From the sequence record NC_073080.1: a stretch of DNA of 44,849 nucleotides; one strand, 5' to 3'. The position numbers and the translations under genes are program-made. This document shows, piece after piece, positions 4,900-43,455 of the stretch (the first letter of the stretch is position 1; the number at the start of each line of letters is the position of its first letter). The stretch is from Escherichia phage EC115. Below the pieces are notes generated by a model. That model was not told the origin of the DNA, did no database searches, and saw only the letters and a list, made by a program, of their open reading frames with translations.

Positions 4900-5011
4900 C
4901 CCGTCCGCAGACCCCGACGAGGATTTGATGATTGACGTGAAAAATATGGAATGCGGGGCGAAGCTAAGGGCGCAGGTGCTGGAGTTGCAGCAAATAATTA
5001 AGGGGCCGTAA
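4781..5011 (+). CDS. o-spanin-like lipoprotein (Rz1-like)
   Basis: Internal ATG with AAAGAGG RBS; MLRALTALIVVLMLSACGSS signal peptide with lipobox LSAC; Pro-rich mature part; out of frame and overlapping the 3' end of the i-spanin ORF. Confidence 0.6.
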   Translation: MLRALTALIVVLMLSACGSSNAPLMPLTESALRPPCKFDSPSADPDEDLMIDVKNMECGAKLRAQVLELQQIIKGP

Positions 5012-5023
5012 TGGCCCCTTTTT
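5001..5023. terminator. Bidirectional intrinsic terminator
   Basis: AGGGGCC-gtaat-GGCCCCT hairpin followed by a T-run, flanked by an A-run; sits between converging genes ending at 5011 (+) and 5026 (-). Confidence 0.6.
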
Positions 5024-5025
5024 CG

Positions 5026-5790: not shown

Positions 5791-5829
5791 TTTTATGTCC
5801 TCATTTTAGGGGCTTTCGCCACGATTGGT

Positions 5830-6144
5830 TTAGTTGAATTTGATGTTGCCACCGGTGGAAGTTAAGCGGGCACATACAGCTTCAACGGCATCGACGCACA
5901 TGAAATCGTTAAAGGCTTCGACCAGGGCGTTTATGAAAGATGCCGGAACCAGGCCGCAAGCCGGATTATCGAATATCGCGGAGTTGATCGCCGCTTTTGC
6001 CGCTTCAGAAGCATTCATGCTCTGGCACAGATTCAGCGCTTCCGCGTTACGCATTGCGTGAAAGGTAAAGGTATTAGCTACGGTAGCTTTATTGAAACGG
6101 GCCATTGCGGCGTCTACTGGAGTTGCTACGGTCATGTTAGTCAT
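5830..6144 (-). CDS. Hypothetical protein
   Basis: Minus-strand ORF upstream of 5026..5790; start chosen at the ATG (MTNMTV) preceded by GAAGGAAG RBS; track ORF extends to 6204. Confidence 0.5.
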   Translation of the reverse strand: MTNMTVATPVDAAMARFNKATVANTFTFHAMRNAEALNLCQSMNASEAAKAAINSAIFDNPACGLVPASFINALVEAFNDFMCVDAVEAVCARLTSTGGNIKFN

Positions 6145-6179
6145 TTTGTCTTCCTTCATATCTCTGTTGGTGTGCAACC

Positions 6180-6209
6180 AATATACTGCAACCAACATTC
6201 GCAATGCAA
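6180..6209 (-). promoter_or_regulatory. Sigma70-like promoter for the reverse-strand cassette
   Basis: On the minus strand TTGCAT-N18-TATATT; contains two TTGGTTGCA 9-mers; the 21-mer TATATTGGTTGCACACCAACA is identical to the one at 40282-40302. Confidence 0.45.
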
Positions 6210-6298
6210 GCGAATTTTGCGATTATTTTTATCGCTGATAATATTAAGGCGTGAAGTCAAGCGGGTGGCCCGCTTTGCCACAATCCCAGGGGGATAGC

Positions 6299-7000
6299 AT
6301 GAAACTTACTAAAGCAGAATATGACGCGTTGCCGGAAGGCATGAAGGCGCTTTTTGTTGCCGATGGTGACGGGTATAAATCCACGTTCATGACCGCCGAA
6401 GAAGTACAGGCGGAGATCAAGGGTCTGAAAGACAACAACGCGAAGCTGGTTAGCGAAAAGAAAGCAGAAGCCGAACGCCGCGCCGAAGCCGAGCGCCTTG
6501 CGAAAGAGAAAGAGGAAGCCGCCGCGCGCAAAAATGGCGACCTCGAAGCGATCGACAAGTCCTGGAAAGATAAGTTTGCGAAACACGAAGCAGACACATC
6601 GGGAAAAATCGAAGCCTACCGCAAGCAGATCCACGATCTAACCATCGGCAGCGCTGCCAAAGACCTAGCGTCGAAGCTATTCGGTAAGAATGCCGGGATC
6701 ATGCAACGCCACGTTATGGACCGCCTGACGCTGGAAGACGGCGAAGACGGCAGCTTGAAAGTGCGTGTCTTGCAGGATGGCAAACCGTCCGCGCTGACTA
6801 TGGAAGAGCTTGAAAAAGAGTTCCGTAATAACGCCGATTTTGCATCCGTCCTGGCTGGCACGCCAGCCGGTGGTGCGCCGAGCAAACCGACGCATGTTGT
6901 CGAAGATGTGAAGTCGAAAATCTCTATGGGCCACAGCTTCGGCATCACCGATCTGACGAAACAGGCTGGTGAAATCATCGCTAAAATGGGCGACGAGTAA
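6299..7000 (+). CDS. Scaffolding protein (putative)
   Basis: About 233 aa, charged and helical (Ala/Glu/Lys-rich), directly upstream of the major capsid gene; ATG at 6299 with GGGGGA RBS (track ORF starts 6251). Confidence 0.6.
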   Translation: MKLTKAEYDALPEGMKALFVADGDGYKSTFMTAEEVQAEIKGLKDNNAKLVSEKKAEAERRAEAERLAKEKEEAAARKNGDLEAIDKSWKDKFAKHEADTSGKIEAYRKQIHDLTIGSAAKDLASKLFGKNAGIMQRHVMDRLTLEDGEDGSLKVRVLQDGKPSALTMEELEKEFRNNADFASVLAGTPAGGAPSKPTHVVEDVKSKISMGHSFGITDLTKQAGEIIAKMGDE

Positions 7001-7097
7001 GCACATTGCCCGCGAAAGCGGGCAATTTTGCGAGCGCGTAAATCTAAGGTAACATTAACGGTACTGGGCGAATGCTCACAACTCAAAGGATTTCGAT

Positions 7098-8192
7098 ATG
7101 TCTTTAACAGTGTTCCAGCGTAAACTCGTCACCGCGGTTACGCAAATGATCCCCGATAACCTGAACGTGTTCAACGCTGCCGCTAACGGTGCTGTTGTTC
7201 TCGGCACGGGTGAAGTGCTGAAGGACGTTGTGGAAAAAATGTCCGTAGGCTTGATCGCTAACCTCGTTACCGATCGTAACGCCTATGCCCCTGTCGGTAC
7301 TCCGGCGACCGCAAAAGTGCTGGCGCGTATGCTGACCAACTCCGTTAACCTGTCCGCGAAAGTGGGTCCGGTAGCAATCACTAAGGCCATGATGGCTAAG
7401 ATCGAAACCAACGTTAACAGCGTTGCGGCTGAGATTGCGGCACAGGCTACTCAAGCGATTATGCTGCATTACCTGAAAGCAGGTATCGGCGCAAGTAAAG
7501 CGGCGATCGAGAGCAACGCAGCGGCAAAATACACCCAACCGGCGCGCGTTGACGGCGTTGGCGGTCGAACCTTCCCGACCCTCGCAGACTTCCCGCTGGC
7601 GGCGTCCAAGTTCGGCGATCAGGCGTCTTTAATTAAATCCTGGTTTATGGACGGCGTTACCTGGGCAAACTTCATTGCATACCAGGCGCTCCCGTCTGCC
7701 GAGCAGGTATTCGCGATCGGCGACCTGCAGGTAATGGGCGATGGCTTGGGCCGTCGTTTCATTATTTCCGATGCCGCTGCCGATGCTATGGGTGCTGGCA
7801 CGATGCTTGGTCTTGTCCCTGGCGCGGTTGCAGTTACGACCAATGGCCTCGATATGCTGGCGCAGGAAAAAGGCGGCAACGAGAACATTGAGCGCTGGTG
7901 GCAGGGCGAGTTCGACTTCAACGTGGCTGTTAAAGGCTATCGACTGAAGGCGTCCGCACGTACTCCGGTCGAAGGTGTTCGCTCGTTCAAACTGTCCGAC
8001 ATCACCACTTCCGATAACTGGGAACTGGACCAGGGCCAGGTAGACAACGCACCGGCAACCGTGCAGGACGTTGGCGGCGATAGCGATACTAAAGGCCGCC
8101 GCCGTACGCAGACCGCGCAGGCAGTGCCGACCCGTCACATCAAGGAAACGGCTGGCGTACTGGTTACGCTGACTGCGACTACCGCGTCTTAA
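7098..8192 (+). CDS. Major capsid protein
   Basis: 364 aa after the scaffold, strong RBS, followed by a strong terminator; assigned by position and size. Confidence 0.8.
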   Translation: MSLTVFQRKLVTAVTQMIPDNLNVFNAAANGAVVLGTGEVLKDVVEKMSVGLIANLVTDRNAYAPVGTPATAKVLARMLTNSVNLSAKVGPVAITKAMMAKIETNVNSVAAEIAAQATQAIMLHYLKAGIGASKAAIESNAAAKYTQPARVDGVGGRTFPTLADFPLAASKFGDQASLIKSWFMDGVTWANFIAYQALPSAEQVFAIGDLQVMGDGLGRRFIISDAAADAMGAGTMLGLVPGAVAVTTNGLDMLAQEKGGNENIERWWQGEFDFNVAVKGYRLKASARTPVEGVRSFKLSDITTSDNWELDQGQVDNAPATVQDVGGDSDTKGRRRTQTAQAVPTRHIKETAGVLVTLTATTAS

Positions 8193-22224: not shown

Positions 22225-22303
22225 GTTATCATCTCCTATATTTGGTTGAGTTTTAGTATTACACCTCTCAACCAGGATTGCAACCAATTACGAGGATTTA
22301 GCT

Positions 22304-24262
22304 ATGGCAGCGGGCACACTATCCGTAACGAATAACAGCAAGGCGGTTGTCGGGGTAGGCACGACGTTTACCGCGTTTAAAGCCGGAGACTTCTTAACGC
22401 TGGTGGTGGGCCAAGTACCCTACACCGTAGCGATCGCGTCCGTTGAAAGTGCAACCGCGCTAACGCTGGTGCTGCCGTTCGACGGCCCAACGGCAACCGG
22501 CCTCGCGTGGGATGGCGTTAAGCGCGATACCATGTCGCTGGCAACGATGGGCGTTACCGTACAGGCACAGAAAGCGTTGCGCTTGATGATCGCAGATGAA
22601 AACAACTGGCGTGCAATCTTCGGCGACGCTGAAGAAATCACAGTGACGTTACCTAACGGGCAAGTTATGCAGGGCATGTCGTGGGGCTATTTGTCCTCCT
22701 TGCTGAAGGAAGTAGACCCCGTTGAGATGCGCAACCTTCAACAACAGGCCGAGACGGCGAAAAAGACTGGGGCGGAGACGGCGCGCGACGCAGCTAATAC
22801 TGCGAAGACCGACGCGCAGACCGCAAAAGGCCAGGCCGAATCCGCGCGCGACGCCGCTAATACTGCGAAGACTGGGGCGGAGACGGCACGCGACCAGGCT
22901 AATACTGCGAAGACCGACGCGCAGACCGCAAAAGGCCAGGCCGAATCCGCGCGCGACGCCGCTAATACTGCGAAGACCGGAGCAGAGAACGCTCGCAACC
23001 AGGCGCAAGGCTACCGTGATGAGGCGGAAGGTTTTAAAAACCAGATTAACCCTGCACTATTCGTGCAGAAGTCCCAAAACCTGAATGACGTTGCCGATAA
23101 AGCTGAGGCGCGCGCTAACTTGCAAGTTTTATTTGCGTCAAACTCTAACCTGGGGGCTACCGACCTCAACACGCTCAACAGCACGAAGGAAGGGCGTTAT
23201 TACCAGACCACATCGGTGAACGCTACACCAGAGCGTAACTACCCGTTTCAGGAAGCCGGTTGTCTTACCGTGTTTAAAACCGGCGGGGGTAGTGTGGAGG
23301 CTTGCATCCAGGAGTACACCACGTTTTTAAGCCTGCGTCGGTTCGTCCGTTCGCTCGCTGGGGCGGTGTGGACGGCGTGGAAGGAGATCTACCTGCAAGG
23401 GTCGTCCCCAACATACGAAAATATCGACTCGACAGGACGAGTTAGATCTGAAAAGGCATACCCAGCGTTCGAGTGGGTGTCGACGAGAGTAGCCGACGAT
23501 TTCATCGGTAAGCGAGTCAGCATTGAGAACGACACAGGCGTTAATATGTATATGTTCTTCATGCGGAAAGACACAACCGCAAACAGACGTGTCGTAGCGT
23601 TCGCAAGGCCAAACTCTACTGTTTTCCACTTCGTAGGGTATAACGGCGGGTTACCTACCGACGGCAACAGTGCGCCGTCAAATAACATCAACTTTAACAC
23701 GCAACCGCAAGGCTGGCGTCTGGTGTCCGGCGGCTGGCAAAATGCACCGCTAGCCGGTAACAATTACGGGACACTATTCACGCAATGCATGCAGGGTGTC
23801 GCGGAAGGGGATTCGAAAGACAACGGTACATCAGGCTTGTGGTATTCACAGCGATATTTTAATTCCGAGTCTAGGGTGTTCATCCGACATCAAACAAACA
23901 ACGCCGCTTGGACTGGCTGGTACGAGCTTACTAAAACAGCAGTATCGGATGAACGCCTGAAGAATGTAAAAGGTAATTTGAATGTTGAAGGTGCGCTCGA
24001 TAACATCAACCGCATGGAATTTAAAATATTCTCGTTTAAGGATGAGAAGGCCGGTAAGGGGTGTCGTCGCGGTGTTATCTCGCAGCAGATTCGCCAGATC
24101 GATAAAGAGTACACGAAGGAGATCGGCGGGTACTATCACCTCGACCAGACACCAATGCTACTGGACGCCCTAGCGGCAATTAAGGCGTTGCGTGCGCGTG
24201 ACGAGGCTAATAAAGCAGAGATTGCAGAACTGAAGGCGGCTATTGCCGAATTGAAGAAATAA
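22304..24262 (+). CDS. Tail fibre protein with C-terminal intramolecular chaperone domain
   Basis: 652 aa; conserved N-terminus, tandem Ala/Thr-rich repeats, C-terminal DERLKN-containing segment resembling self-cleaving chaperone domains of tail fibres/spikes, coiled-coil tail. Confidence 0.85.
   Translation: MAAGTLSVTNNSKAVVGVGTTFTAFKAGDFLTLVVGQVPYTVAIASVESATALTLVLPFDGPTATGLAWDGVKRDTMSLATMGVTVQAQKALRLMIADENNWRAIFGDAEEITVTLPNGQVMQGMSWGYLSSLLKEVDPVEMRNLQQQAETAKKTGAETARDAANTAKTDAQTAKGQAESARDAANTAKTGAETARDQANTAKTDAQTAKGQAESARDAANTAKTGAENARNQAQGYRDEAEGFKNQINPALFVQKSQNLNDVADKAEARANLQVLFASNSNLGATDLNTLNSTKEGRYYQTTSVNATPERNYPFQEAGCLTVFKTGGGSVEACIQEYTTFLSLRRFVRSLAGAVWTAWKEIYLQGSSPTYENIDSTGRVRSEKAYPAFEWVSTRVADDFIGKRVSIENDTGVNMYMFFMRKDTTANRRVVAFARPNSTVFHFVGYNGGLPTDGNSAPSNNINFNTQPQGWRLVSGGWQNAPLAGNNYGTLFTQCMQGVAEGDSKDNGTSGLWYSQRYFNSESRVFIRHQTNNAAWTGWYELTKTAVSDERLKNVKGNLNVEGALDNINRMEFKIFSFKDEKAGKGCRRGVISQQIRQIDKEYTKEIGGYYHLDQTPMLLDALAAIKALRARDEANKAEIAELKAAIAELKK
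22766..23010 (+). repeat. Tandem 105 bp repeat (about 2.3 copies) inside tail fibre gene
   Basis: Near-identical 105 nt units encoding a repeating 35 aa block (…ARDAANTAKT…). Confidence 0.8.
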
Positions 24263-24265
24263 ATA

Positions 24266-24291
24266 GAAGGGGCCGTATGGCCCCTTTTTTA
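24266..24291. terminator. Bidirectional terminator between tail fibre and leftward operon
   Basis: GAAGGGGCC-gtat-GGCCCCTT hairpin followed by six T. Confidence 0.65.
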
Positions 24292-24864
24292 GTTTGAGTT
24301 TTCCCAGTCCATTTTGCGCCGCACTAGCGGGCTTTCGTAATACTCCTTCCCATCCACTTCCACTAAGGGCCAGTCATTAACAATGACGTAAGGCTCTGCG
24401 ATATCCTCGATCACGCCGTGCGCGCTATGTTGTCCGAAATCTACGCCCACCAGGATAACCCCGGCAACGCGACGAGTGAGATACTCGCGAGCGCAACGGG
24501 CCTCGACCAGTCCTCGACGTATTCCGCTGGTGGCCTTAACCTCGTAGGTCCAGACGGCATCGATCACATGTTCTCGGAAGTCGGGGCCGGATTTTACCTT
24601 GCGCTTGCCGACCATGATAATATCGCCGCGGTCGATCGTGTTAGCGCTAAACAGGCCGGTACGCATTAGCAAACCTTGCGGGATACAGCTACGCCCGCCC
24701 GCCTGTCCTTCGAGGTACATGCCAGCAAACATCTCGCCCAGCACACCGACAAGACGGCTTTGCTTGCAAGCGTCGGACTTGTATCGCCACTGGTCAAACT
24801 CGATGCTGGCAATCATTGCTGCCAGGTGGAATTGTTTACCGGTTATTTCATATTCGCCGTACAT
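24289..24864 (-). CDS. Hypothetical protein (possible PD-(D/E)xK-like fold)
   Basis: 191 aa, last gene of the leftward operon; D...EVK arrangement (GDIIMVGK ... TYEVKA) loosely suggests a nuclease-like fold. Confidence 0.5.
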   Translation of the reverse strand: MYGEYEITGKQFHLAAMIASIEFDQWRYKSDACKQSRLVGVLGEMFAGMYLEGQAGGRSCIPQGLLMRTGLFSANTIDRGDIIMVGKRKVKSGPDFREHVIDAVWTYEVKATSGIRRGLVEARCAREYLTRRVAGVILVGVDFGQHSAHGVIEDIAEPYVIVNDWPLVEVDGKEYYESPLVRRKMDWENSN

Positions 24865-24905
24865 TGTGTGGTCCTCATTGATGCGGGCCGAAGCCCGCGA
24901 TTAAA

Positions 24906-25457
24906 TTATTTAAGTGCGCCAGTCACAAGTGTTTTTTCCATGTTACGGAAATCTTCCGGCGTCATGAGGATTTTAGACCCGTCCTCGCCAGTGAGCACGA
25001 CCATAGGCTGGACGTCCTGATCTGCGATGCCAAAATTAGCGGCTTTAACCGTTTTACCGGGGGTAAATGCGTCTCCTGTTTTGACGGGCCAACCTTTGAG
25101 GCTATCGAATTGTGCTGCCGTTGTATCGATCTGAATCTCGTCATGCACGGTCATGTAAGACTCGCCCAGCAGGGCGGCATACGCCACCAGGTCCACGATG
25201 TTATCTTCCTGGTGCTTACGGGTCTGGCGCACCAGCTTCAGGCAGATCAGGAAGGTCCAGGCTTCTTGCTCGGTAAGGTCGCGCCCGGTAAGCGCGTTAA
25301 ACACGGCGGCGATCTGTCTAGCGCTGCGTTCCTCTTTCGCGTTGTCATAGCCGTTTTCTTTCCCGCGCTGTTCCATAGTGGTGGCGGCGTTTTTGCAGTA
25401 TTCGTATGCTTTCACAGTATTACCCTTTTTAGTGAGGGGGCGGTATTGCCCCGACAC
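24906..25457 (-). CDS. Hypothetical protein
   Basis: 183 aa ORF with its own promoter/operator at 25462-25491. Confidence 0.55.
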   Translation of the reverse strand: MSGQYRPLTKKGNTVKAYEYCKNAATTMEQRGKENGYDNAKEERSARQIAAVFNALTGRDLTEQEAWTFLICLKLVRQTRKHQEDNIVDLVAYAALLGESYMTVHDEIQIDTTAAQFDSLKGWPVKTGDAFTPGKTVKAANFGIADQDVQPMVVLTGEDGSKILMTPEDFRNMEKTLVTGALK

Positions 25458-25461
25458 GTTT

Positions 25462-25491
25462 ACTATAGTGCAACCAACCTATTGGTTGCAA
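25462..25491 (-). promoter_or_regulatory. Promoter with embedded perfect palindromic operator
   Basis: Minus strand TTGCAA-N18-TATAGT; the spacer is filled by TGCAACCAA-ccta-TTGGTTGCA (25469-25490, 9 bp arms). Confidence 0.5.
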
Positions 25492-25949
25492 GTGAATTTT
25501 GCAACGTTTATTGCGTAAATTTTCGGGACCAAATCACCACACGCCCGACGAATTGCCGCGATGTTCTTCGGGCAGTCCTCAATGATGACCAGTTCCGACA
25601 CGTCCGCATAGCAGACCATTTTGAACACGGCGCACGCCTTAAACTCTGGCGGCGGGGTGTCGTCCAGCATGTGGCGCATAAACAACCGGCCTACGGGGAA
25701 GACTTCCAGTTGTTTGGCGGTGGTGTCCCAACATTCTCGCTGCCGGTTGGTCAGATACGCGATCTCGAAGCCTTGCTCTTTATACATGCGCAGTAGCGGC
25801 AGCATATCCATGTTCAGGTCTTCGCGGACGTGCGCTTTGTGCCACTTCGCCCAAAAGGTGGATTTAGTTTTTATGCCCGGCACCAAGTCGGCGCGCGCAT
25901 CGCTTGATCCATTAATAACGCCATCCAGATCACAAATCAGTAATTTCAT
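25479..25949 (-). CDS. HAD-superfamily phosphatase-like protein
   Basis: 156 aa; N-terminal LICDLDGVI (DxDGx) HAD motif I; later Thr and acidic residues consistent with HAD motifs. Confidence 0.5.
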   Translation of the reverse strand: MKLLICDLDGVINGSSDARADLVPGIKTKSTFWAKWHKAHVREDLNMDMLPLLRMYKEQGFEIAYLTNRQRECWDTTAKQLEVFPVGRLFMRHMLDDTPPPEFKACAVFKMVCYADVSELVIIEDCPKNIAAIRRACGDLVPKIYAINVAKFTCNQ

Positions 25950-26179
25950 TTTAAGCTCTCAATAAGGGTCTGTCGGGCGCTTCGCGCAGTAACGGAGTTG
26001 CATACGAAATGACAACGCTGAGTCATGACAAGCCAACCGGTGAGGTCAAGGCCCATGATGTATTCGGGGCGAGACGCGCGCACCACACGATCGCGGCGTG
26101 GGTCGATGTTATAGTCTTTTTGCATTTGGTCTACGACCGCGTGGTCGCGGTCAACGATTAAGATATTCATGTAGCTCAC
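25946..26179 (-). CDS. Hypothetical protein
   Basis: 77 aa ORF overlapping both neighbours in operon context. Confidence 0.4.
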   Translation of the reverse strand: MSYMNILIVDRDHAVVDQMQKDYNIDPRRDRVVRASRPEYIMGLDLTGWLVMTQRCHFVCNSVTARSARQTLIESLK

Positions 26180-27370: not shown

Positions 27371-27399
27371 AAGATAATGCAACCAATATGATTATGCAA
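27371..27399 (-). promoter_or_regulatory. Candidate promoter with two direct TTGGTTGCA copies
   Basis: Minus strand TTGCAT-N17-TATCTT; 9-mers at 27378-27386 and 27395-27403. Confidence 0.35.
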
Positions 27400-27404
27400 C
27401 CAAT

Positions 27405-30327: not shown

Positions 30328-30356
30328 ACTATACCGCTATGCGACCAATTCAGCAA
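30328..30356 (-). promoter_or_regulatory. Candidate sigma70 promoter
   Basis: Minus strand TTGCTG-N17-TATAGT upstream of the zinc-ribbon gene. Confidence 0.35.
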
Positions 30357-30615
30357 CCAATAAATCACAGTCGGCGATGTTGTCTATAACGCGAACGTCA
30401 GCGCCGCGGCGGGCCATCCGCTCATGTTCACGTACCTGGTGCGGCTTCGGTTTTCCTCCTGGGCGCTTCACTTCGACGAACACTATTTTGCCGTTGATGA
30501 TGATAATCAGGTCGGGCGCACCTGCGCGCCCCTCCCAGGCCATTTTGCGGCAGAATCCGCCTACCTCTTTCACCCGTCGCATCAGGTGACTTTGAATCTT
30601 GCCTTCTGGTGTCAT
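30337..30615 (-). CDS. VRR-NUC domain nuclease
   Basis: 92 aa from ATG 30615; PDLIIIINGKIVFVEVKRPGGKPKPHQ matches the VRR-NUC D...E.K core; start overlaps the polymerase stop. Confidence 0.7.
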   Translation of the reverse strand: MTPEGKIQSHLMRRVKEVGGFCRKMAWEGRAGAPDLIIIINGKIVFVEVKRPGGKPKPHQVREHERMARRGADVRVIDNIADCDLLVAELVA

Positions 30616-32906
30616 TACTTCCTGTACCTGTACATGATGTCGCCTTCGGCGGCAAGCGGGAAGCCTTTCGCCCAAATCGGCAGGTCGCACATCAGCGCGC
30701 ATAGCTCCTCGGTCGTGTAGTCGTCAGTATCCGGAACCTCGGTGATCAGTTCATCGTGTACGGACAGTACGATCTCATATCCCGCAGCTTCAACGCCAGG
30801 CATGGACCATGCGAGGATATCGCGACACAGCGCCTGTACGATGTTTTCCGTGAGTTTGCCGCCGTAGGTGTACTGGAAGCCCCACTGGCGGGTCGTCTGA
30901 TTCTCGCCCTGATATTTAATGCGGGTGCTGGTGCGTTTCTTGCCAGTATCTTCGTCGATCTCGGTAGTGACAGACAGCGCAATGCCTGGATAACTCATAA
31001 TACGCCCCGACGGCAACTCAATTTTCAACCACCACCCCGCGGCGTTCGGGTCGTCGCGTTCCTCGTCGAAGGTTGGGTCATGCTTCGCCTTCGTGCGGAC
31101 TATCTTGAGCGCTTTCTTACCATCCGGGCGAACGTTCGCGCCAGCCCAGTACGCTTTGCCAGGATTGCGGATTGCACACAACACCGCGTCCTCAAGCTCG
31201 GCCCAAAAGGCTACCGTCTTCGGGTGCGCCTCTCGCCACATGCGTTTAATCGCATCACACGTAAGCCATACGTTTTTCGGCAGTATGTAAGTCGGGCGCT
31301 CGTCCTTCTTGCCAGGCTTCGGCGGTCGCTTCGCTTCGTTAATGCGGGCGTACGCATAACCCCGTTTAGCCGCTGCCCAAATGTGATCGGGGAATGTGCC
31401 CTTCATGACGTCCGCCATCGCGTAAAGGTCGAGGCCCAGGTTTTTAGCGAACTGCAAGAACGCAGCCACGCCGCCGCCATAGCCAAGTCCCAACTCACAC
31501 GCCTTACCAATCTGGCGTAGGTCTTTGCGGTTGGCTTTAATGTATTCCGGGTCAAGGCCGAACATCTTACCGGCAGTTTCACAATAAATATCGCGACCGG
31601 CCCTAAACACCATTAGCGCGGTTTTCTCACCAGCGATCCAGGCGAGGCCACGCCCTTCCACGTTAGAATAGTCCGCTACGACAAACTTCTTACCCTTCGC
31701 TGGAATAATGCACCCGCGAACGGTCGAGGCCGTTAGCTTCGATATGTCATACGCCCAGTGCGCTGTCCCGCGTAACAGGGAGTTTATGCCGTTGGTGAGC
31801 ATGTGCGACCGCACCCAAAACGCGACGTCGCTCTCGCCTTCACGGCGTTTAATCTTCCCTTCGTGGTCGTCGCTATACTCGCCGCGTGCCAGGTTTTGCG
31901 GCTGGAAGCCTTTACCGGCCCAGCGTAGCGTGCGTTTCGCCCCACCATACTGGAGACACCCACGACGGCGACCATCTGCAGATAAGCCATTAACGAGCGG
32001 ATTGTACTTAGTCGATGCCGTTGATGATGCACCGAGGCGCATCTCGATAAGCACTTTGCCCTCGTCGGGGAAGTCCGGGTCTTCCAGCAGGTCGTTAAGC
32101 GTGGATTTCTGCGCGTTGTGTATTGTGAACGCAGGCGCGAGGTCGCGCAGCGCTGGCAGGAAGTCATTGCCTGTCAGCTTACCGCCGAAGCGCTCCCATG
32201 CTTCTTCCTTCAATTCTTCCTTATGCGCCTGCACCGCTTTGATCGCGGCGTTCGCCAGGTCAACGTCCACATAGAAGCCGCGGTCGTTGATCAACTGGTC
32301 AATAAGCAGGATTTCATCTTCCTTCGGCGTGTTACCCCAGTCCGGTATGCGCCAGTAGACTTCCCTCATCGCTATAATGTCAAGCGCGGCATAGCGCAGG
32401 AATTTAGCCCACTCCTCGGGGTGCGTCTCGCGCGTGTAGCGGCGGATTTTGTAGGTCTTAGGGGTTGGCTTACAGAATCGTTTGATCAGCGCCTTGCCCG
32501 CCTTATCCTTCGCGTGCTCTGCGTCAACGCCCAGCACCTGGCATTGCATATCGAGGCTACCCGGCAGCGCGTGGCGAAAGGCCATAATCATGGTATCTTC
32601 GATCTGGCCTACCGGCAGGTCAATGCCCCACTTCTCGCGAATAACCAGGCGGTCAAACAGGAGGCCGTTAGCCATCACGATTTTTGCTTTCTTGCGGGAT
32701 ACCTGGCGGAGCGCCTTGCGCAGTTCACGCGGCATTGTGGGGGATTCGGTGCAATCCCAGGTCTGCACGCGGCCCTCGTCGATGGCGTATGTGCAAATCA
32801 TAATCTCAGTAGTTGGGTGTTCCGCGTAGGCGTATGCGCCCACTTTCTTCAGATCCACCCCGCTAAATGTCTCGGTATCGAGAAACAGGCGTTCAAAGTC
32901 TTTCAT
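30615..32906 (-). CDS. DNA polymerase, family A (3'-5' exonuclease plus polymerase)
   Basis: 763 aa; Exo I-like LDTETFS, motif A-like VADYSNVEGR, motif B-like RQIGKACELGLGYG, motif C LSVHDELI. Confidence 0.9.
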   Translation of the reverse strand: MKDFERLFLDTETFSGVDLKKVGAYAYAEHPTTEIMICTYAIDEGRVQTWDCTESPTMPRELRKALRQVSRKKAKIVMANGLLFDRLVIREKWGIDLPVGQIEDTMIMAFRHALPGSLDMQCQVLGVDAEHAKDKAGKALIKRFCKPTPKTYKIRRYTRETHPEEWAKFLRYAALDIIAMREVYWRIPDWGNTPKEDEILLIDQLINDRGFYVDVDLANAAIKAVQAHKEELKEEAWERFGGKLTGNDFLPALRDLAPAFTIHNAQKSTLNDLLEDPDFPDEGKVLIEMRLGASSTASTKYNPLVNGLSADGRRRGCLQYGGAKRTLRWAGKGFQPQNLARGEYSDDHEGKIKRREGESDVAFWVRSHMLTNGINSLLRGTAHWAYDISKLTASTVRGCIIPAKGKKFVVADYSNVEGRGLAWIAGEKTALMVFRAGRDIYCETAGKMFGLDPEYIKANRKDLRQIGKACELGLGYGGGVAAFLQFAKNLGLDLYAMADVMKGTFPDHIWAAAKRGYAYARINEAKRPPKPGKKDERPTYILPKNVWLTCDAIKRMWREAHPKTVAFWAELEDAVLCAIRNPGKAYWAGANVRPDGKKALKIVRTKAKHDPTFDEERDDPNAAGWWLKIELPSGRIMSYPGIALSVTTEIDEDTGKKRTSTRIKYQGENQTTRQWGFQYTYGGKLTENIVQALCRDILAWSMPGVEAAGYEIVLSVHDELITEVPDTDDYTTEELCALMCDLPIWAKGFPLAAEGDIMYRYRK

Positions 32907-33131: not shown

Positions 33132-33914
33132 TTAACGGCGGCGACGTTTACGTGGCGCTTCGTCTTCGTCGTCGTCCTCATCTTCGTCATCGCGTGGCTT
33201 ACGACGTTTACGAGGTTTCTCGTCTTCGTCATCATCATCGTCATCGCGGCGCTTGGACTTTTTGGACTTGCGCGGCTTGTCGTCTTCGTCATCGTCATCA
33301 CGACGTTTTGACTTTTTGGACTTGCGCGGGCTTTCATCTTCGTCATCGTTGTCCAGGTCTTCGTCTGAGCAAGAAGAACCGCCACCGCCGAAGGCTTCGC
33401 CGTCATCGCGGAAGCGCAGACCCAAAAGACCCGCACCGAGTCCCTTGCCGTTGGTATTGTTCCACGCCCAAATGTCGAGGGACACGTTGCAATAACAACC
33501 GGAGTAGATCTCCTGGCCTTCGATCTCGTCACCTTCTACGGTCAGACCTTGTTCAGTCTGTTTCTCGCCGAGTGACGTTTGAATGTTTGGCTGCTTGAAC
33601 GATTTGGCGTTGATGTACAACATGCCTTCAAATTCTTCGGTTACTTCGTCACGCTCGTCACCGTCGCGGACTGCGCATTCCTTAGAATCCTGGGCGTAGT
33701 GCCGGTCCATCCACTTATCGGCATTCTTCTCGGATTTCAGCTTGTCGGTGAGCACTGCGCGCGCTGCCGCTTCCACTTTGTCCACCAGCGGATCTTCTTT
33801 ATCCAGAAGAATCACTGCACGGTATGCCGGTTTTTGTCCATCCTGTTTAGGGGTATCACGTTCCCAAATTTTCAGGAAACATACGCGCACATTTTTCAGG
33901 TTGACTTTAGCCAT
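33132..33914 (-). CDS. Single-stranded DNA-binding protein (T7 gp2.5 / DUF2815-like) with repetitive charged C-terminal tail
   Basis: N-terminus MAKVNLKNVRVCF... (start at ATG 33914 with GAGGA RBS; track ORF 33935); C-terminal third is three DDDDEDDKPRKSKKSKRR-type repeats. Confidence 0.55.
   Translation of the reverse strand: MAKVNLKNVRVCFLKIWERDTPKQDGQKPAYRAVILLDKEDPLVDKVEAAARAVLTDKLKSEKNADKWMDRHYAQDSKECAVRDGDERDEVTEEFEGMLYINAKSFKQPNIQTSLGEKQTEQGLTVEGDEIEGQEIYSGCYCNVSLDIWAWNNTNGKGLGAGLLGLRFRDDGEAFGGGGSSCSDEDLDNDDEDESPRKSKKSKRRDDDDEDDKPRKSKKSKRRDDDDDDEDEKPRKRRKPRDDEDEDDDEDEAPRKRRRR
33160..33340 (-). repeat. Tandem ~57-60 bp repeats (3 copies) inside SSB gene
   Basis: Repeated cgtcttcgtcatcgtcatc...gactttttggacttgcgcgg units on the plus strand. 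Confidence 0.7.
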
Positions 33915-34004
33915 TTTCCAATTCCTCATTTTCACATGTATCGGGGTTATTATGAGCCACCCCGTTCGGCTTGGTTGCTAATCTACTTGGTTGCGCCTAA
34001 GCGA

Positions 34005-34247
34005 TCAAGCACTTTTATTAAAAAGATTTCTGGTCACGTAGTTGGTAGCGTTCTCGACCCAGCTTAACGGCGGTCGGTCGATGTTCTTCTCCACCCAGTC
34101 GACGGCAGCGTCACTATATCCGTCGTCAAGCCAGCGGGTCGGATGGCGAATCATCCAGGCTACCATTAACACGCCTTGCACGCAATGCAGGATAAATCCC
34201 AGCGCGCCGAGCAAAAACATCAATAAGATCGCAAATACTTTATTCAT
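34005..34247 (-). CDS. Small membrane protein
   Basis: 80 aa with two hydrophobic helices (AILLMFLLGALGFIL; VLMVAWMI). Confidence 0.45.
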   Translation of the reverse strand: MNKVFAILLMFLLGALGFILHCVQGVLMVAWMIRHPTRWLDDGYSDAAVDWVEKNIDRPPLSWVENATNYVTRNLFNKSA

Positions 34248-35670
34248 TGCTTAAGTCCTCGTCAGTAGCTTCCGACCACGCAGGGCGCGGGTCGTCGATC
34301 GGTGCTAACACCGGTTTGGCGGGTGCGCGCGTGATTTTAGCACACAGCTTCGCCCACACTTTCGGTTTTTCGTCCTTCAGTACCTTCTCGGCATCGGTCG
34401 GGCTGAGCAATGTTTCTTTGTACATCACATCGCGCTTGATCCGGGCCTTCGTGAAGATTTCAATCACTTCGCTCTCGTCCGCCCACTTACGGATCCCTTC
34501 CTTACCGGCAACCATCTTGAGGCCTAGCGATTCGCCATCGCCCGCCATGACCGCCTTGAATACCGCTGACTCGATAGCCTTGATGTGCTGGCGCATCGCA
34601 TCAAGGCCTTCATAAGCCTTGCGCAGTTCCGCCGCGCTCATAGCGCCGGGGGCCGCTTCCTTCTTGCCGCGCTTCGCACGTCGGGCCGCCTTCCGGGCTT
34701 CGCGGGCCATATTGCGGTCGTGATTGGCGCATTCTTCCTCGGTCGCCACGCTCACGTCGTCGCCCAGGTCTTCGTCGGTTGCCGTTGGTGGTGTCATCGT
34801 GTCGATTGCGGCCTTCGCCCGGACGCTGCACTGGTCCGCAAATCTGCACCACTGGCACGCATCAACGCTCGGTCTGAAGTCGGCGCGGGTGAGTCCCTTT
34901 TTGCCTCTGGCGTACGCTTCCAGCGCGGCGATAGCGCGCTTGGATGCAAACTTCGCGAATATCTCCAGGGCTTCTACCGAAATATCCCATTCCGACGCCC
35001 CACCGCAATACGGCTGGAAGATAACCAAGCGCACAGACGTAATGTCGTACATGGTTTGCAGCTTGCGCAGCAGGCCGAGCGCGTACAACATAAGCTGTTT
35101 GTTTTCTTTCGCCTCGACCTTATGCCGCCCAGTCTTCAGGTCGCCAACAATCAGCATGTACGTCCCGTCGGTCTTTTTCATGACCATGACCATATCGGCA
35201 GTACCGAACGTTTTAATCCTGTTGCCGTCGATCTCGTAGCCTGAGTGAAGGACGCGGGTCAGGTCGGCGCGCATCTCAAGCTGGACAAACTCCGCCACTT
35301 CGAGGAGCGGTCGCCAGTGGTCGATGTACGCGTCGCACTGTTTCACCATGTCGTCGTTGACCAGTACGCCGCCTTTCGGTGCTTTAGGGTGTGCCTTCAC
35401 TGGCCCCTTGCCTTCGTTCTCGACGTAGCACCCTTTATACGTCTTTGCGGTTATCTGCTTCTCACCGGCGATAATACGGTTTAGCACCACTTCAGATACG
35501 GTGTGCATACTCGTACCGTTAATCGCGGCTTGCCCGGATTCGTTAGGGATATCTTTTTCCACCACCAGGGCGGCCGGACACCCCATCCATTTTTTAGCTC
35601 CGGATGGCCCGAGTAATGAGTGTTCCGTATTACTACCGGATTGCGTTTTACGTTTTGGTTTAATCGCCAT
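34240..35670 (-). CDS. PD-(D/E)xK exonuclease, DUF2800 / Cas4-like (putative)
   Basis: 476 aa; N-terminal HSLLGPSGAKKWMGCPA-type motif with a C-terminal Cys cluster (CQWCRFADQC); gene partner of the gp2.5-like SSB. Confidence 0.6.
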   Translation of the reverse strand: MAIKPKRKTQSGSNTEHSLLGPSGAKKWMGCPAALVVEKDIPNESGQAAINGTSMHTVSEVVLNRIIAGEKQITAKTYKGCYVENEGKGPVKAHPKAPKGGVLVNDDMVKQCDAYIDHWRPLLEVAEFVQLEMRADLTRVLHSGYEIDGNRIKTFGTADMVMVMKKTDGTYMLIVGDLKTGRHKVEAKENKQLMLYALGLLRKLQTMYDITSVRLVIFQPYCGGASEWDISVEALEIFAKFASKRAIAALEAYARGKKGLTRADFRPSVDACQWCRFADQCSVRAKAAIDTMTPPTATDEDLGDDVSVATEEECANHDRNMAREARKAARRAKRGKKEAAPGAMSAAELRKAYEGLDAMRQHIKAIESAVFKAVMAGDGESLGLKMVAGKEGIRKWADESEVIEIFTKARIKRDVMYKETLLSPTDAEKVLKDEKPKVWAKLCAKITRAPAKPVLAPIDDPRPAWSEATDEDLSNE

Positions 35671-37026: not shown

Positions 37027-37055
37027 ATATTAGATTGGTTGCATGAGGGAGTCAA
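37027..37055 (-). promoter_or_regulatory. Leftward sigma70-like promoter for the early/replication operon
   Basis: Minus strand TTGACT-N17-TAATAT; overlaps a TTGGTTGCA 9-mer. Confidence 0.5.
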
Positions 37056-37230: not shown

Positions 37231-37560
37231 ATGAATGTAAACGACGCAATCGAAATGTTAACGACGACTGTTAGCAGTGAAACAAGCCGGTCATGGGCTT
37301 ATACCGATGCCGTTGGGGCGGTGCTATTTGAGGTCGAGCGCCTGCGCAGTGTAGAAAAAGAATTACGCGCCAGGCTGGAATTGCTCAACGGTACGGCGGC
37401 GAGCAAGCTACAAAAACACAATGAAGAAATGGAAGAATACAAAAAGCAGGTTATCCGTTTGCGCGCCGAGGGCAAATCCTGGGCGATGATTGCCGAGTTG
37501 ACCGGAATTAATCAGAGCACAGTGCGCTCTTGGGTACGCAATAACAAAACTTCTAAGTAA
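37231..37560 (+). CDS. HTH DNA-binding protein (putative regulator)
   Basis: 109 aa; helical N-terminus and C-terminal HTH-like segment (SWAMIAELTGINQSTVRSW). Confidence 0.6.
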   Translation: MNVNDAIEMLTTTVSSETSRSWAYTDAVGAVLFEVERLRSVEKELRARLELLNGTAASKLQKHNEEMEEYKKQVIRLRAEGKSWAMIAELTGINQSTVRSWVRNNKTSK

Positions 37561-39835: not shown

Positions 39836-39941
39836 ATTTTGCGCGCATTGGTTGCCATTTTGAGTGTTTTTAGCTGGTAGCATTGGTTGCCGTGTAGTGT
39901 GAATATAATGCATAGTTATGCAATAAAACTGCATAAAGTAA

Positions 39942-40099: not shown

Positions 40100-40258
40100 C
40101 ATAAAATCCAGGATTGCATAACGCACGGCAGCATGTTGCGGATTGCGGTCGTCGATGAACTAGGCAACCAATGCGAGGTGCAGAATGGCGGGCGGGAAAT
40201 GCAGTTTGCAGTCACAGCAGATAGCGATCAACTTTTTCATGCGCGTGATTAATATTGG

Positions 40259-40287
40259 TTGCATTCGGCCTGGCACCTTGCTATATT
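40259..40287 (+). promoter_or_regulatory. Sigma70-like promoter flanked by TTGGTTGCA copies
   Basis: TTGCAT-N17-TATATT; 9-mers at 40255-40263 and 40286-40294; GAGGA RBS before the ATG at 40316. Confidence 0.5.
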
Positions 40288-40315
40288 GGTTGCACACCAA
40301 CATGAGGACTGAACA

Positions 40316-40651: not shown

Positions 40652-40924
40652 ATGGACCGCAGACGCGCGAAACAGCTTTCGTGGCATATCCCACTGCATT
40701 GCATACGAATATGGGCTAAGAATGCGAATGAGGGCGATTCTGTGTTCTGGAGCTATCGCGACGATGTGAAGCCCCTAACGCAGACCCGCTATCTGCACCA
40801 GTTCGCCAGGGAGCATGGATTCGCTATAAAAACGTCCTTGCAACCAATTGGCATCCGTATTACATTACGCCGGAAGCCCGCCGTTGAGCGGGTAGGCAAA
40901 CACTGGAGACTGAGCAAATGTTGA
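40652..40924 (+). CDS. Hypothetical protein
   Basis: 90 aa basic ORF in operon context. Confidence 0.5.
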   Translation: MDRRRAKQLSWHIPLHCIRIWAKNANEGDSVFWSYRDDVKPLTQTRYLHQFAREHGFAIKTSLQPIGIRITLRRKPAVERVGKHWRLSKC

Positions 40925-43394: not shown

Positions 43395-43455
43395 GCTTGA
43401 CTCGCAACCAACACAGGGGCCATACTGCAACCAATCAACTGGAGGAGTAATCAAG

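What the first reader, a model, noticed from the sequence alone, without database searches (positions are those of the whole stretch)
24289..25457. Terminal two-gene cassette with its own operator-controlled promoter
Two unknown proteins (183 and 191 aa) end the leftward transcription unit, are driven by the palindrome-containing promoter at 25462-25491 and end at a bidirectional terminator. The distal protein has a D...E-x-K arrangement suggesting a nuclease-like fold. Separate regulation from the upstream genes suggests a distinct accessory function.
Basis: inference. Interest (0 to 1): 0.45.

Follow-up and report, generated by a model that had tools for sequence, protein, structure and literature searches.

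The report
Conserved phage nuclease gene pair
The last two genes of this E. coli phage's DNA-replication block encode a small restriction-enzyme-like nuclease and a helical partner protein of unknown function; both are core genes of the phage genus rather than an optional, separately controlled add-on.

Summary
The window is a complete Dhillonvirus genome (HK578/EP23/TheodorHerzl type). The upstream gene most likely starts at GTG 25415 (169 aa), not 25457.

The proximal protein carries a DUF6378 domain whose function is unknown.

The "separate regulation, accessory function" reading is not supported:
- The pair is present in about 155 of 156 sequenced genus members and is under purifying selection.
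- No terminator precedes it.
- Its "operator" is two copies of a 9-mer (TTGGTTGCA) that marks about ten promoter-like sites across the genome.

One new observation: every nuclease-bearing phage examined outside the genus also has a DUF6378 gene within about 2.5 kb. N4-like phages pair DUF6378 with an unrelated nuclease of the same fold. The biological role is still inferred.

The parts
24289..24864 (-). 191-aa protein predicted to be a small PD-(D/E)xK endonuclease (PHROG 10558; bas14_0028 in TheodorHerzl). Predicted catalytic residues are E44, D81, E108 and K110.
24906..25415 (-). 169-aa protein. The N-terminal ~88 residues form a DUF6378 domain with four predicted helices. The rest is an indel-rich linker and a genus-specific C-terminal tail. 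The gene is bas14_0029 in TheodorHerzl.
   Evidence: Pfam PF19905 E 1.3e-9, 38.6 bits against a 27.1-bit cut-off. PHROG 9871, 474 and 1167 match. Domain invariants are R17, D24, E29, S31, K60, R63, D71, D75, Y79, L82 and E85. The C-terminal half is not conserved in sister lineages.
25462..25491 (-). Sigma-70-type promoter-like site: -35 TTGCAA (25491-25486), 18-nt spacer, -10 TATAGT (25467-25462). The predicted transcription start is near 25455-25457.
   Evidence: The site is nearly invariant in 7 genus members. The same layout (9-mer, N4-8, 9-mer, N1-5, TATA(G/T)T) occurs at the same position in three sister-lineage contigs whose proteins are about 55% identical.
25469..25490 (.). Perfect 9+4+9 palindrome, TGCAACCAA-TAGG-TTGGTTGCA. 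It consists of two inverted copies of the genome-wide 9-mer. Its loop holds the stop codon of the upstream HAD phosphatase gene.
25437..25452 (-). GC-rich stem-loop (GGGGC-N6-GCCCC) at the predicted 5' end of the transcript, followed by an AAGGG Shine-Dalgarno sequence.
   Evidence: dG -11.6 kcal/mol. This is not exceptional against shuffles (z -1.0). However, a GC-rich hairpin of different sequence sits at the same place in L004, L005 and L007.
24883..24898 (-). Intergenic stem-loop GCGGGC-UUCG-GCCCGC between the two genes, with no U-tract. It is followed by a GAGG Shine-Dalgarno sequence for the nuclease gene.
   Evidence: dG -13.6 kcal/mol, z -2.6. It is conserved in 7 genus members.
24265..24288 (.). 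Bidirectional intrinsic terminator shared with the convergent tail-fibre gene, which ends at 24262.
   Evidence: The stem is conserved while the loop varies among relatives.

Best explanation
The region holds the last two genes of the leftward DNA-metabolism module of a Dhillonvirus. They are a core, co-inherited pair.

Shown:
- The distal gene encodes a compact protein predicted to have a PD-(D/E)xK fold. An invariant E44 lies on helix 1, an invariant D81 at the start of strand 2, and an invariant E108-x-K110 on strand 3.
- The proximal gene encodes a DUF6378 domain protein with an invariant set of charged residues.
- Both genes are conserved in essentially every sequenced member of the genus.
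- A 9-mer-bearing sigma-70-like promoter element precedes the pair and a bidirectional terminator ends it.
- The two gene families stay within about 2.5 kb of each other in every nuclease-bearing phage examined.

Inferred:
- The 191-aa protein is a Mg2+-dependent DNA endonuclease, probably a dimer like Hjc and small restriction enzymes.
- It is made with the replication and modification genes, from read-through transcription plus an internal booster promoter. That promoter belongs to the phage's own promoter family.
- The DUF6378 protein works with the nuclease as an enzymatic or ligand-binding partner.
- The most likely role is cutting DNA during the replication phase. This could mean breaking down host or otherwise unprotected DNA and feeding nucleotide turnover, together with the adjacent HAD phosphatase and the Dam/Dcm methylases in the same module. 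It is probably not the phage's junction resolvase.

The nuclease assignment is fairly firm (about 0.8). The biological role is a low-confidence guess (about 0.25-0.3). The confidence given below is for the statement as a whole, excluding the specific role.
For: Identity of the genome: 93% identity to TheodorHerzl and 155 matching Dhillonvirus records.

Catalytic signature: G40, E44, G64, R68, D81, E108, K110, Y128, I161 and W165 are invariant in 16 sequences down to 22% identity.

Core status: cassette DNA in 155 records, nuclease at 60% identity or more in 156, DNA polymerase in 156. Synonymous changes far outnumber non-synonymous ones.

Synteny: the order Dam, Ksap1, phosphatase, [0-2 small genes], DUF6378, nuclease, then the convergent tail-fibre gene is kept in contigs with about 55% protein identity. 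In one of them the two genes overlap as ATGA.

Linkage outside the genus: phiKp_7-1, KW1E_UTAR, ATCEA23, Sabo and four IMG/VR contigs all show nuclease, lysis genes, then a convergent DUF6378 gene, with the two genes 1.6-2.5 kb apart.

DUF6378 next to another nuclease: in three N4-like genera (L011-L013) the DUF6378 gene overlaps a downstream Cas4-like exonuclease gene by 20 nt.

Promoter family. Terminator.

Other nucleases in the genome: VRR-NUC at 30337-30702 and a DUF2800/PDDEXK_1 protein at 34240-35670. The 191-aa protein is therefore not the only candidate resolvase.
Against: - No curated sequence family or solved structure matches either protein by sequence.
- I could not inspect model coordinates, so the clustering of E44, D81, E108 and K110 in space is inferred from their secondary-structure positions.
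- The AF2 model of the DUF6378 protein is unusable (pLDDT 49).
- Linkage of the two families could reflect shared ancestry of Dhillonvirus and T1-like phages rather than functional coupling. In T1-like phages the two genes lie in different operons.
- Nothing tested here bears on substrate or on host-DNA degradation.
- No transcript data exist for the promoter.
Confidence: 0.6

Rival explanations
1. The 191-aa protein is the phage's Holliday-junction resolvase or debranching enzyme. It would clear branched replication and recombination intermediates before packaging, as Hjc-type and T7 endonuclease I-type enzymes do.
Against: The same genome already encodes a VRR-NUC protein that also matches a PHROG named Holliday junction resolvase. 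KW1E_UTAR also has both a VRR-NUC protein and the nuclease homologue. No Hjc Pfam or PDB sequence match was found. Restriction enzymes and a homing endonuclease score as well as or better than Hjc.
Confidence: 0.2
2. One reading: the pair is an accessory, separately regulated cassette, for example anti-defence or inter-phage competition. The nuclease would attack host defence nucleic acids or competitor genomes.
For: The pair has its own promoter-like element and lies at a module boundary next to the variable tail-fibre locus. Small genes are inserted just upstream in sister lineages. The C-terminal half of the DUF6378 protein is indel-rich within the genus and replaced in sister lineages. Neighbouring gene products in this module are known to interact with host immunity: Ksap1 activates KpAvs2 (PMC11564622).
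Against: The pair is present in about 155 of 156 genus genomes at a fixed position. The nuclease is 95-99% identical in most members and under purifying selection. The promoter is one of a genome-wide family and has no terminator before it. PADLOC gave no match. The papers consulted report no phenotype for either gene.
Confidence: 0.12
3. The 191-aa protein keeps the PD-(D/E)xK fold but is not a DNA-cutting enzyme. It could be a DNA- or RNA-binding or structural subunit, or an RNA nuclease like the tRNA-splicing endonuclease, PA-N or DXO relatives.
Against: The full E...D...ExK signature is invariant, which argues for catalysis. The best matches are DNA endonucleases.
Confidence: 0.1
4. The pair is a toxin-antitoxin-like module, in which the DUF6378 protein neutralises a toxic nuclease. 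Alternatively, the nuclease is a free-standing homing endonuclease.
Against: In T1-like phages the two genes lie in different, convergent operons. The DUF6378 domain has an invariant set of charged residues more typical of an enzyme or ligand-binding site than of an inhibitor. The distribution is universal and syntenic, not sporadic as for homing genes. PADLOC gave no match.
Confidence: 0.05

Closest known systems
Hjc archaeal Holliday-junction resolvases (PDB 2wcw, 1gef, 1ob8)
   Different: There is no detectable sequence similarity. The phage protein has about 30 extra N-terminal and about 45 extra C-terminal residues, and a long loop between Asp and ExK. Junction specificity is untested, and the genome has a separate VRR-NUC protein.
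I-Ssp6803I, a PD-(D/E)xK homing endonuclease (PDB 2ost)
   Different: I-Ssp6803I is a mobile gene encoded within an intron (from my own knowledge). The phage gene is a fixed core gene in constant synteny. Sequence identity is 10%.
Small type II restriction endonucleases (NhoI, MspI, HinP1I, ThaI, DpnI catalytic domain)
   Different: No cognate specificity or methylation dependence is known. The gene is not adjacent to a methyltransferase gene in the way a restriction-modification pair is.
DUF6378 plus Cas4-like exonuclease gene pair of N4-like phages (Schitoviridae; PHROG 474/1167 'phosphofructokinase' plus PHROG 2139 'exonuclease')
   Same: A DUF6378 gene lies immediately upstream of a PD-(D/E)xK-fold nuclease gene and is co-oriented with it, inside a replication module. 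The two genes overlap by 20 nt there and as ATGA in contig L007.
   Different: The N4-like nuclease is about 320 aa, Cas4/RecB-like, and shows no profile similarity to the 191-aa family. The DUF6378 domain is C-terminal there and N-terminal here.
Sigma-70 phage promoters overlapped by repeated regulator-binding sites
   Same: -35/-10 hexamers are overlapped by two copies of a conserved short repeat.
   Different: No binding protein has been identified. Copy orientation and spacing vary between sites and between lineages: inverted here, direct in relatives. One copy itself supplies the -35 hexamer TTGCA(A/T), so the repeat may be a promoter element rather than an operator.

Membership tests
PD-(D/E)xK (restriction-endonuclease-like) nuclease superfamily | alpha-beta-beta-beta-alpha-beta core fold | tested here: met
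PD-(D/E)xK (restriction-endonuclease-like) nuclease superfamily | Conserved catalytic signature: Glu on helix 1, Asp on strand 2, (D/E)xK on strand 3 | tested here: met
   E44, D81, E108 and K110 are invariant in 16 homologues down to 22% identity and lie on the expected elements.
PD-(D/E)xK (restriction-endonuclease-like) nuclease superfamily | Metal-dependent phosphodiester cleavage | not testable with these tools
   This needs a biochemical assay.
PD-(D/E)xK (restriction-endonuclease-like) nuclease superfamily | Match to a curated sequence family (Pfam, NCBIfam or a PDB sequence) | tested here: not met
   No Pfam, NCBIfam or PADLOC match. No PDB match with the single sequence or with a profile. 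Only PHROG 10558, of unknown function, matches. The family is small: 15 representatives at E of 1e-3 or better among 1.8 billion proteins.
Hjc Holliday-junction resolvase family | Sequence membership and junction-specific cleavage by a dimer | tested here: not met
   Sequence membership is not met; only fold-level similarity was found. Junction cleavage and dimerisation cannot be tested here.
Homing endonuclease (I-Ssp6803I-like) | Sporadic, mobile distribution, or location inside an intron, intein or host gene | tested here: not met
   The gene is present at the same locus in 155-156 of 156 genus records and in diverged sister lineages.
DUF6378 (Pfam PF19905) | Profile match above Pfam's gathering score | tested here: met
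   38.6 bits against a 27.1-bit cut-off, residues 30-99 of the 183-aa reading. The domain's invariant residues are retained.
MazG-like all-alpha NTP pyrophosphohydrolases (my own recalled lead for DUF6378) | Profile or structural similarity to MazG/HisE-type four-helix domains with acidic metal-binding motifs | tested here: inconclusive
   No Pfam MazG match at E of 1 or better. No PDB match with two profiles. No hhalign similarity to one phage protein annotated as MazG-like, although that protein itself did not match Pfam MazG. AF2 predicts four helices but at pLDDT 49. The resemblance remains unverified.
Sigma-70 promoter | -35 and -10 hexamers with a 16-18 nt spacer | tested here: met
   TTGCAA, 18 nt, TATAGT; 9 of 12 matches. 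The site is conserved in the genus and its architecture in sister lineages. Whether transcription starts there cannot be tested here.
Palindromic operator controlling one private promoter | An inverted repeat specific to this promoter and conserved as an inverted repeat | tested here: not met
   The arms are copies of a 9-mer found 12 times exactly in the window at about ten promoter-like sites. In sister lineages the two copies at this position are direct repeats. Protein binding was not tested.
Intrinsic (rho-independent) terminator, bidirectional | GC-rich stem-loop followed by a U-run on both strands | tested here: met
   (dG -15.7 and -17.4 kcal/mol; 0 of 200 shuffles fold as well).
Toxin-antitoxin or known defence/anti-defence module | Match to known models; obligate co-operonic pair | tested here: not met
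   No PADLOC match. The two families lie in convergent operons in T1-like phages.

The most novel reading that the evidence does not exclude
DUF6378 proteins may be dedicated partners of PD-(D/E)xK nucleases across unrelated phage groups: Dhillonvirus and T1-like siphophages with the 191-aa family, and N4-like podophages with a Cas4-like exonuclease. The pair would form a previously unrecognised two-component nuclease system. The DUF6378 domain would bind or hydrolyse a nucleotide-like ligand and so control or direct DNA cleavage during infection.
Probability: 0.15. Interest if true: 0.55.

Novelty: new member of a known kind. Interest (0 to 1): 0.33.

Why it matters
Dhillonviruses are common E. 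coli phages. They are used in phage-therapy engineering and as probes of bacterial immunity (BASEL phage Bas14 and others, SECphi4/18). These two genes are annotated as 'hypothetical' or wrongly as 'phosphofructokinase' in 150+ genomes.

Assigning the distal gene to the PD-(D/E)xK nucleases gives a directly testable function. It also gives a candidate for the nuclease activities that immune sensors may detect. The repeated linkage of DUF6378 genes with nuclease genes offers a first functional handle on a widespread phage domain of unknown function.

The genome-wide 9-mer gives a concrete starting point for mapping how this phage genus organises its transcription. I found no published work on that in the papers I searched.

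None of this is very surprising to a specialist. The value lies in annotation and hypotheses rather than in a new principle.

Tried and rejected
- Sequence searches of both proteins against Pfam, NCBIfam, PADLOC and PDB sequences gave only DUF6378 and PHROGs of unknown or misnamed function.
- Foldseek of the nuclease model against the PDB gave nothing significant. The afdb50 library was unavailable.
- AF2 of the DUF6378 protein failed (pLDDT 49), so no fold search was run on it.
- A profile search with a diverse DUF6378 alignment returned 837 proteins. The 120 listed were mostly genus orthologues and showed no informative domain fusions or names.
- The MazG-like idea for DUF6378 was tested by hhalign against one annotated phage MazG-like protein, with no similarity.
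- Similarity between the 191-aa family and the N4-like exonuclease, or the membrane protein next to DUF6378 in mEp044, was tested and rejected.
- D102 as the catalytic aspartate was rejected because it is not conserved.
- An RNA-hairpin or attenuator role for the palindrome was rejected as the main reading. It has no U-tract on the transcribed strand, and sister lineages have direct repeats there.
- Literature searches found no study of either gene. I searched for DUF6378, Nmad, Dhillonvirus with promoter, SECphi18/SECphi4/HK578, and the 9-mer itself. The known Dhillonvirus immune triggers and inhibitors that were identifiable are other genes: Ksap1, portal, SSB, DNA polymerase, Nmad5 and anti-Tmn ORF35. 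The gene of phage98 that triggers Retron-Eco7 could not be identified because no supplement is held.
- Rfam and tRNA scans of the window were empty.
Full report
What the window is. Region 24100-25700 is 89-93% identical to about 155 phage records. Nearly all are Escherichia or Shigella phages of the genus Dhillonvirus (HK578, EP23, SSL-2009a, SO-1 and the BASEL phage TheodorHerzl/Bas14). At 44.8 kb, and with a gene order collinear with the complete TheodorHerzl annotation, the window is a whole genome of this type. The finding covers the last two genes of the leftward DNA-metabolism module. That module runs: DNA polymerase I, helicase, Dcm-like methylase, HNH endonuclease, two small genes, Dam-like methylase, a 74-aa protein, HAD phosphatase, then the two genes. 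They are convergent with the lateral tail-fibre gene.

Checking the observation. Both ORFs exist at the stated coordinates. Both code for protein:
- They match phage protein families end to end (PHROG 10558, E 8e-120; PHROG 9871, E 5e-105).
- Changed codons are mostly synonymous. For the distal gene the ratio is 49 synonymous to 6 non-synonymous against BEK2-2, and 62 to 10 against EP23.

One correction concerns the proximal ORF. As read, it runs from GTG 25457 (183 aa). The PHROG profile and more than 100 homologues align only from residue 15. Three diverged sister-lineage contigs have ATG AAA GCA exactly where the window has GTG AAA GCA at 25415. An AAGGG ribosome-binding site precedes that codon. 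The gene is therefore 24906-25415, 169 aa.

The promoter-like site is exactly where stated: TTGCAA, 18 nt, TATAGT, 25491-25462. As a bare pattern it is unremarkable, with 8 such sites in 5 kb against 4.3 +/- 2.1 in shuffles. The 22-nt perfect palindrome at 25469-25490 is unique in the window and absent from 100 shuffles. The whole stretch is nearly invariant in seven genus members. The bidirectional terminator at 24265-24288 is confirmed on both strands (dG -15.7 and -17.4 kcal/mol, no shuffle as stable).

The distal protein. A seven-sequence alignment gave an AlphaFold2 model with mean pLDDT 82.7 and pTM 0.81. Its core reads helix 34-54, strand 59-62, strand 81-88, strand 100-112, helix 122-130, strand 135-143. 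This is the alpha-beta-beta-beta-alpha-beta order of restriction-endonuclease-like nucleases.

- restriction enzymes NhoI, DpnI, MspI and PaqCI
- the fusellovirus nuclease D212
- tRNA-splicing endonuclease subunits, influenza PA-N and DXO/Rai1

Foldseek against the PDB found nothing significant. Foldseek against predicted viral structures found a series of uncharacterised 150-200-aa phage proteins, two of them labelled restriction endonuclease.

An exhaustive profile search of 1.8 billion representative proteins found only 15 relatives. Across 16 of these and closer homologues, down to 22% identity, the invariant residues are G40, E44, G64, R68, D81, E108, K110, Y128, I161 and W165. E44 lies on the first core helix, D81 at the start of the second strand in a G-D-(I/V) motif, and E108-x-K110 on the third strand. 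This is the canonical arrangement. D102, which a reader might have picked as the 'D', is not conserved.

The proximal protein. Its first ~88 residues are a DUF6378 domain (Pfam PF19905, 38.6 bits against a 27.1-bit cut-off). PHROGs 474 and 1167, which also match, carry the label 'phosphofructokinase', which looks like a misannotation. SECphi18 annotators called it 'nucleotide modification associated protein'.

Across 13 diverse phage DUF6378 proteins the invariant residues are R17, D24, E29, S31, K60, R63, D71, D75, Y79, L82 and E85. Such a set of charged residues suggests an enzyme or ligand-binding site. The AF2 model was poor (pLDDT 49), showing only four predicted helices. My recollection that the domain resembles MazG-like NTP pyrophosphatases could not be verified by any test available.

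The rest of the protein is an indel-rich segment, with genus members ranging from 130 to 199 aa, plus a short genus-specific tail. In sister lineages the C-terminal half is entirely different. Only the DUF6378 domain is the conserved unit.

Is it an accessory cassette? No.
- The cassette DNA matches 155 records, the nuclease at 60% identity or more matches 156, and the DNA polymerase gene matches 156. The pair is part of the genus core.
- In three metagenomic contigs whose proteins are only about 55% identical, the order Dam, 76-aa protein, phosphatase, [0-2 inserted small genes], DUF6378, nuclease, then the convergent tail-fibre gene is retained. In one of them the two genes overlap as ATGA.

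Is it separately regulated? Only in a weak sense. No intrinsic-terminator-like site lies between the phosphatase gene and the promoter. The phosphatase stop codon (TAG, 25479-25481) sits in the loop of the palindrome. Transcripts from upstream promoters should therefore read through.

The palindrome is not a private operator. Its arms are two inverted copies of TTGGTTGCA. This 9-mer occurs 12 times exactly in the window; about 0.3 would be expected for a random 9-mer on both strands (my arithmetic). With one mismatch allowed it occurs 27 times, against 11 +/- 3 in shuffles. ATTGGTTGC is the most frequent 9-mer in the window.

The copies come mostly in pairs 12-35 bp apart, starting at 6173/6187, 25469/25482, 27378/27395, 30340/30352, 33971/33987, 39848/39883, 40255/40286 and 43403/43426, with single copies at 22279, 37035, 40163 and 40839. 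Read in context, nearly all overlap sigma-70-like hexamers in front of genes on either strand. One copy commonly supplies a TTGCA(A/T) -35 hexamer, and the other lies just before or just after a TATAnT -10 hexamer (my reading).

TheodorHerzl has 11 copies at syntenic positions, and three T1-like relatives have none. In the sister-lineage contigs the site downstream of the phosphatase gene has two direct copies, a TATA(G/T)T hexamer, a GC-rich hairpin of different sequence, and a ribosome-binding site. The conserved feature is thus a pair of 9-mers embedded in a promoter, not an inverted repeat.

The cassette's promoter is one member of a series spaced every 2-3 kb along the leftward module (33.98, 30.35, 27.39, 25.48 and 22.28 kb). 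This suggests coordinate control. A 109-aa protein with a sigma-70-region-4-like helix-turn-helix, encoded at 37231-37560 as the first gene of the rightward unit, is a candidate binder. That idea is untested, and a role for the 9-mer as an RNA polymerase recognition element is equally open.

A conserved GCGGGC-UUCG-GCCCGC hairpin without a U-tract lies between the two genes (24883-24898; dG -13.6 kcal/mol, z -2.6). It may stabilise or process the mRNA.

Linkage of the two families. Outside the genus, tblastn found the nuclease family at under 60% identity in 43 records, mainly ~48-kb Klebsiella siphophages, plus KW1E_UTAR, ATCEA23 and others. I scanned three complete genomes (phiKp_7-1, KW1E_UTAR, ATCEA23) with profiles built here. 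Each also has a DUF6378 gene, 1.6-2 kb away and convergent, with the lysis genes in between.

I then predicted the same layout for Pectobacterium phage Sabo, which had been found only through its DUF6378 gene. The 173-aa gene on the far side of its lysis cassette is indeed a nuclease homologue. Four IMG/VR contigs show the same layout.

DUF6378 itself is wider (324 records). In three N4-like genera its gene overlaps, by 20 nt, a downstream ~320-aa Cas4-like PD-(D/E)xK exonuclease gene. That exonuclease is unrelated in sequence to the 191-aa family. Other DUF6378 contexts (mEp044, Bas82, two Xanthomonas phages) show no 191-aa-family homologue within the 5-6 kb examined.

The association is suggestive of a functional partnership. 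It could also reflect inherited synteny, since Dhillonviruses are described as relatives of T1-like Drexlerviridae (PMC8594841).

What it most likely does. The firm part is that the distal gene encodes a metal-dependent endonuclease of the minimal PD-(D/E)xK type. It is produced with the replication and modification genes, together with a DUF6378 partner.

The role is inferred. The genome already has a VRR-NUC protein (30337-30702) that matches a resolvase PHROG, and a DUF2800/Cas4-like nuclease (34240-35670) next to an Enc34-type SSB. The 191-aa protein is therefore a third nuclease and probably not the junction resolvase.

Its constant company is DNA methyltransferases, both here and in T1-like phages, and here also an active-looking HAD phosphatase (DLDGV motif). 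On that basis I favour a role in cutting unprotected or host DNA and in nucleotide turnover, with low confidence.

The rivals, scored in the report sections, are a resolvase, an accessory anti-defence nuclease, a non-DNA or non-catalytic role, and a toxin-antitoxin or homing element.

Literature. No paper in the searchable library treats either gene. The neighbouring 74-aa gene (25946-26179) is Ksap1, the trigger of KpAvs2 (PMC11564622). Other mapped Dhillonvirus determinants are the portal protein (RAZR, PMC13017515), SSB and DNA polymerase (Retron-Eco8 and Borvo, bioRxiv 10.1101/2022.08.27.505566), and Nmad5 with the anti-Tmn ORF35 (PMC11846954). One Retron-Eco7 trigger 'of unknown function' in a Dhillonvirus could not be identified from the held text (PMC12640716).

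Verdict. The nuclease-fold inference is supported. The 'separately regulated accessory cassette' reading is not. This is a new, small, uncharacterised family within a very well-known enzyme superfamily, paired with a domain of unknown function. It is of modest interest, with two leads worth following: the DUF6378-nuclease linkage and the genome-wide promoter 9-mer.

Noticed in passing
window 6173-6195, 22279-22287, 25469-25490, 27378-27403, 30340-30360, 33971-33995, 37035-37043, 39848-39891, 40163-40171, 40255-40294, 40839-40847, 43403-43434: The 9-mer TTGGTTGCA/TGCAACCAA occurs 12 times exactly, against about 0.3 expected. It is mostly in pairs overlapping sigma-70-like -35/-10 hexamers on both strands, and its orientation relative to transcription varies. 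Copies sit at syntenic positions in TheodorHerzl and are conserved in sister lineages with about 55% protein identity. Three T1-like relatives have none. It may be a genus-specific promoter element or a regulator-binding site. I found no description of it in the papers searched.
   Followed up: partly
window 37231-37560 (+): A 109-aa protein with a helix-turn-helix resembling sigma-70 region 4 / HTH_23 (Pfam E 2e-7 to 2e-6; PHROG 9366). It is the first gene of the rightward unit and lies about 190 bp from a 9-mer copy. It is a candidate binder of the 9-mer; this is untested.
   Followed up: no
window 25946-26179 (-): Homologue of Ksap1 (PHROG 10685), the 74-aa Dhillonvirus protein shown to bind and activate the Klebsiella Avs2 immune sensor (PMC11564622). 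It lies between the Dam-like methylase and HAD phosphatase genes, two genes upstream of the cassette.
   Followed up: partly
window 30337-30702 (-) and 34240-35670 (-), 33132-33935 (-): The genome has two further PD-(D/E)xK nucleases: a VRR-NUC protein that also matches a Holliday-junction-resolvase PHROG, and a 476-aa DUF2800/PDDEXK_1 (Cas4-like) protein. An Enc34-type ssDNA-binding protein is encoded nearby. The SSB of related phages is the reported Retron-Eco8 trigger.
   Followed up: partly
L011 2737-4219, L012 2731-4135, L013 2875-4234 (N4-like Vibrio and Stenotrophomonas phages): In all three loci the DUF6378 gene overlaps the following Cas4-like exonuclease gene (PHROG 2139) by 20 nt, between the DNA polymerase and primase genes. 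It is annotated 'phosphofructokinase' in two loci and 'HNH endonuclease' in the third. Both labels look like misannotations.
   Followed up: partly
L023 14317-17182, L024 2901-5940, L025 19005-21850, L016 1940-4562, L026-L029 about 5000-8050: T1-like Klebsiella, E. coli, Enterobacter and Pectobacterium phages keep the nuclease homologue and a DUF6378 gene as the terminal genes of two convergent operons flanking the lysis cassette. In ATCEA23 the DUF6378 ORF is not annotated.
   Followed up: yes
window 24906-25150 (-), the middle and C-terminal part of the DUF6378 protein: This segment is indel-rich within the genus, where orthologues range from 130 to 199 aa. It is replaced by unrelated sequence in sister lineages, while the DUF6378 domain and the neighbouring nuclease are strongly conserved. 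It could be a relaxed linker or a fast-evolving interaction surface.
   Followed up: partly
L004 4846-5287, L005 5160-5465, L007 4960-5166: In sister lineages one or two small genes (44-101 aa) are inserted between the 9-mer promoter downstream of the phosphatase gene and the DUF6378 gene. The promoter boundary thus looks like an insertion hot spot.
   Followed up: no
window 22763-23004 (+), inside the tail-fibre gene 22304-24262: A 105-bp tandem repeat, 2.3 copies at 92% identity, encodes an Ala/Thr/Lys-rich repeat (...DAANTAKTGAETARDQANTAKTDAQTAKGQAESAR...) in the lateral tail fibre.
   Followed up: no
window 43598-44740 (+): A 380-aa protein with weak N-terminal helix-turn-helix matches and a calcineurin-like metallophosphoesterase domain. 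It is preceded by a 9-mer-bearing promoter-like site (43403-43434).
   Followed up: no
hit H60, Enterobacteria phage mEp021 54408-54518; L014 2460-3973 (mEp044): mEp021 carries, at the very end of its record, a fragment 84% identical to the last 37 residues of the nuclease. The related phage mEp044 has a DUF6378 gene directly after a Dam gene, followed by a polytopic membrane protein. The origin of the fragment is unexplained.
   Followed up: no
window 6196-6215 and 25491-25506 (-): The leftward promoters at 6.2 kb and 25.5 kb share an upstream element, GCAAAATTC(G/A)CTTGCA, in addition to the 9-mers. The 6.2-kb and 40.3-kb sites share TATATTGGTTGCACACCAAC after the -10 hexamer.
   Followed up: no
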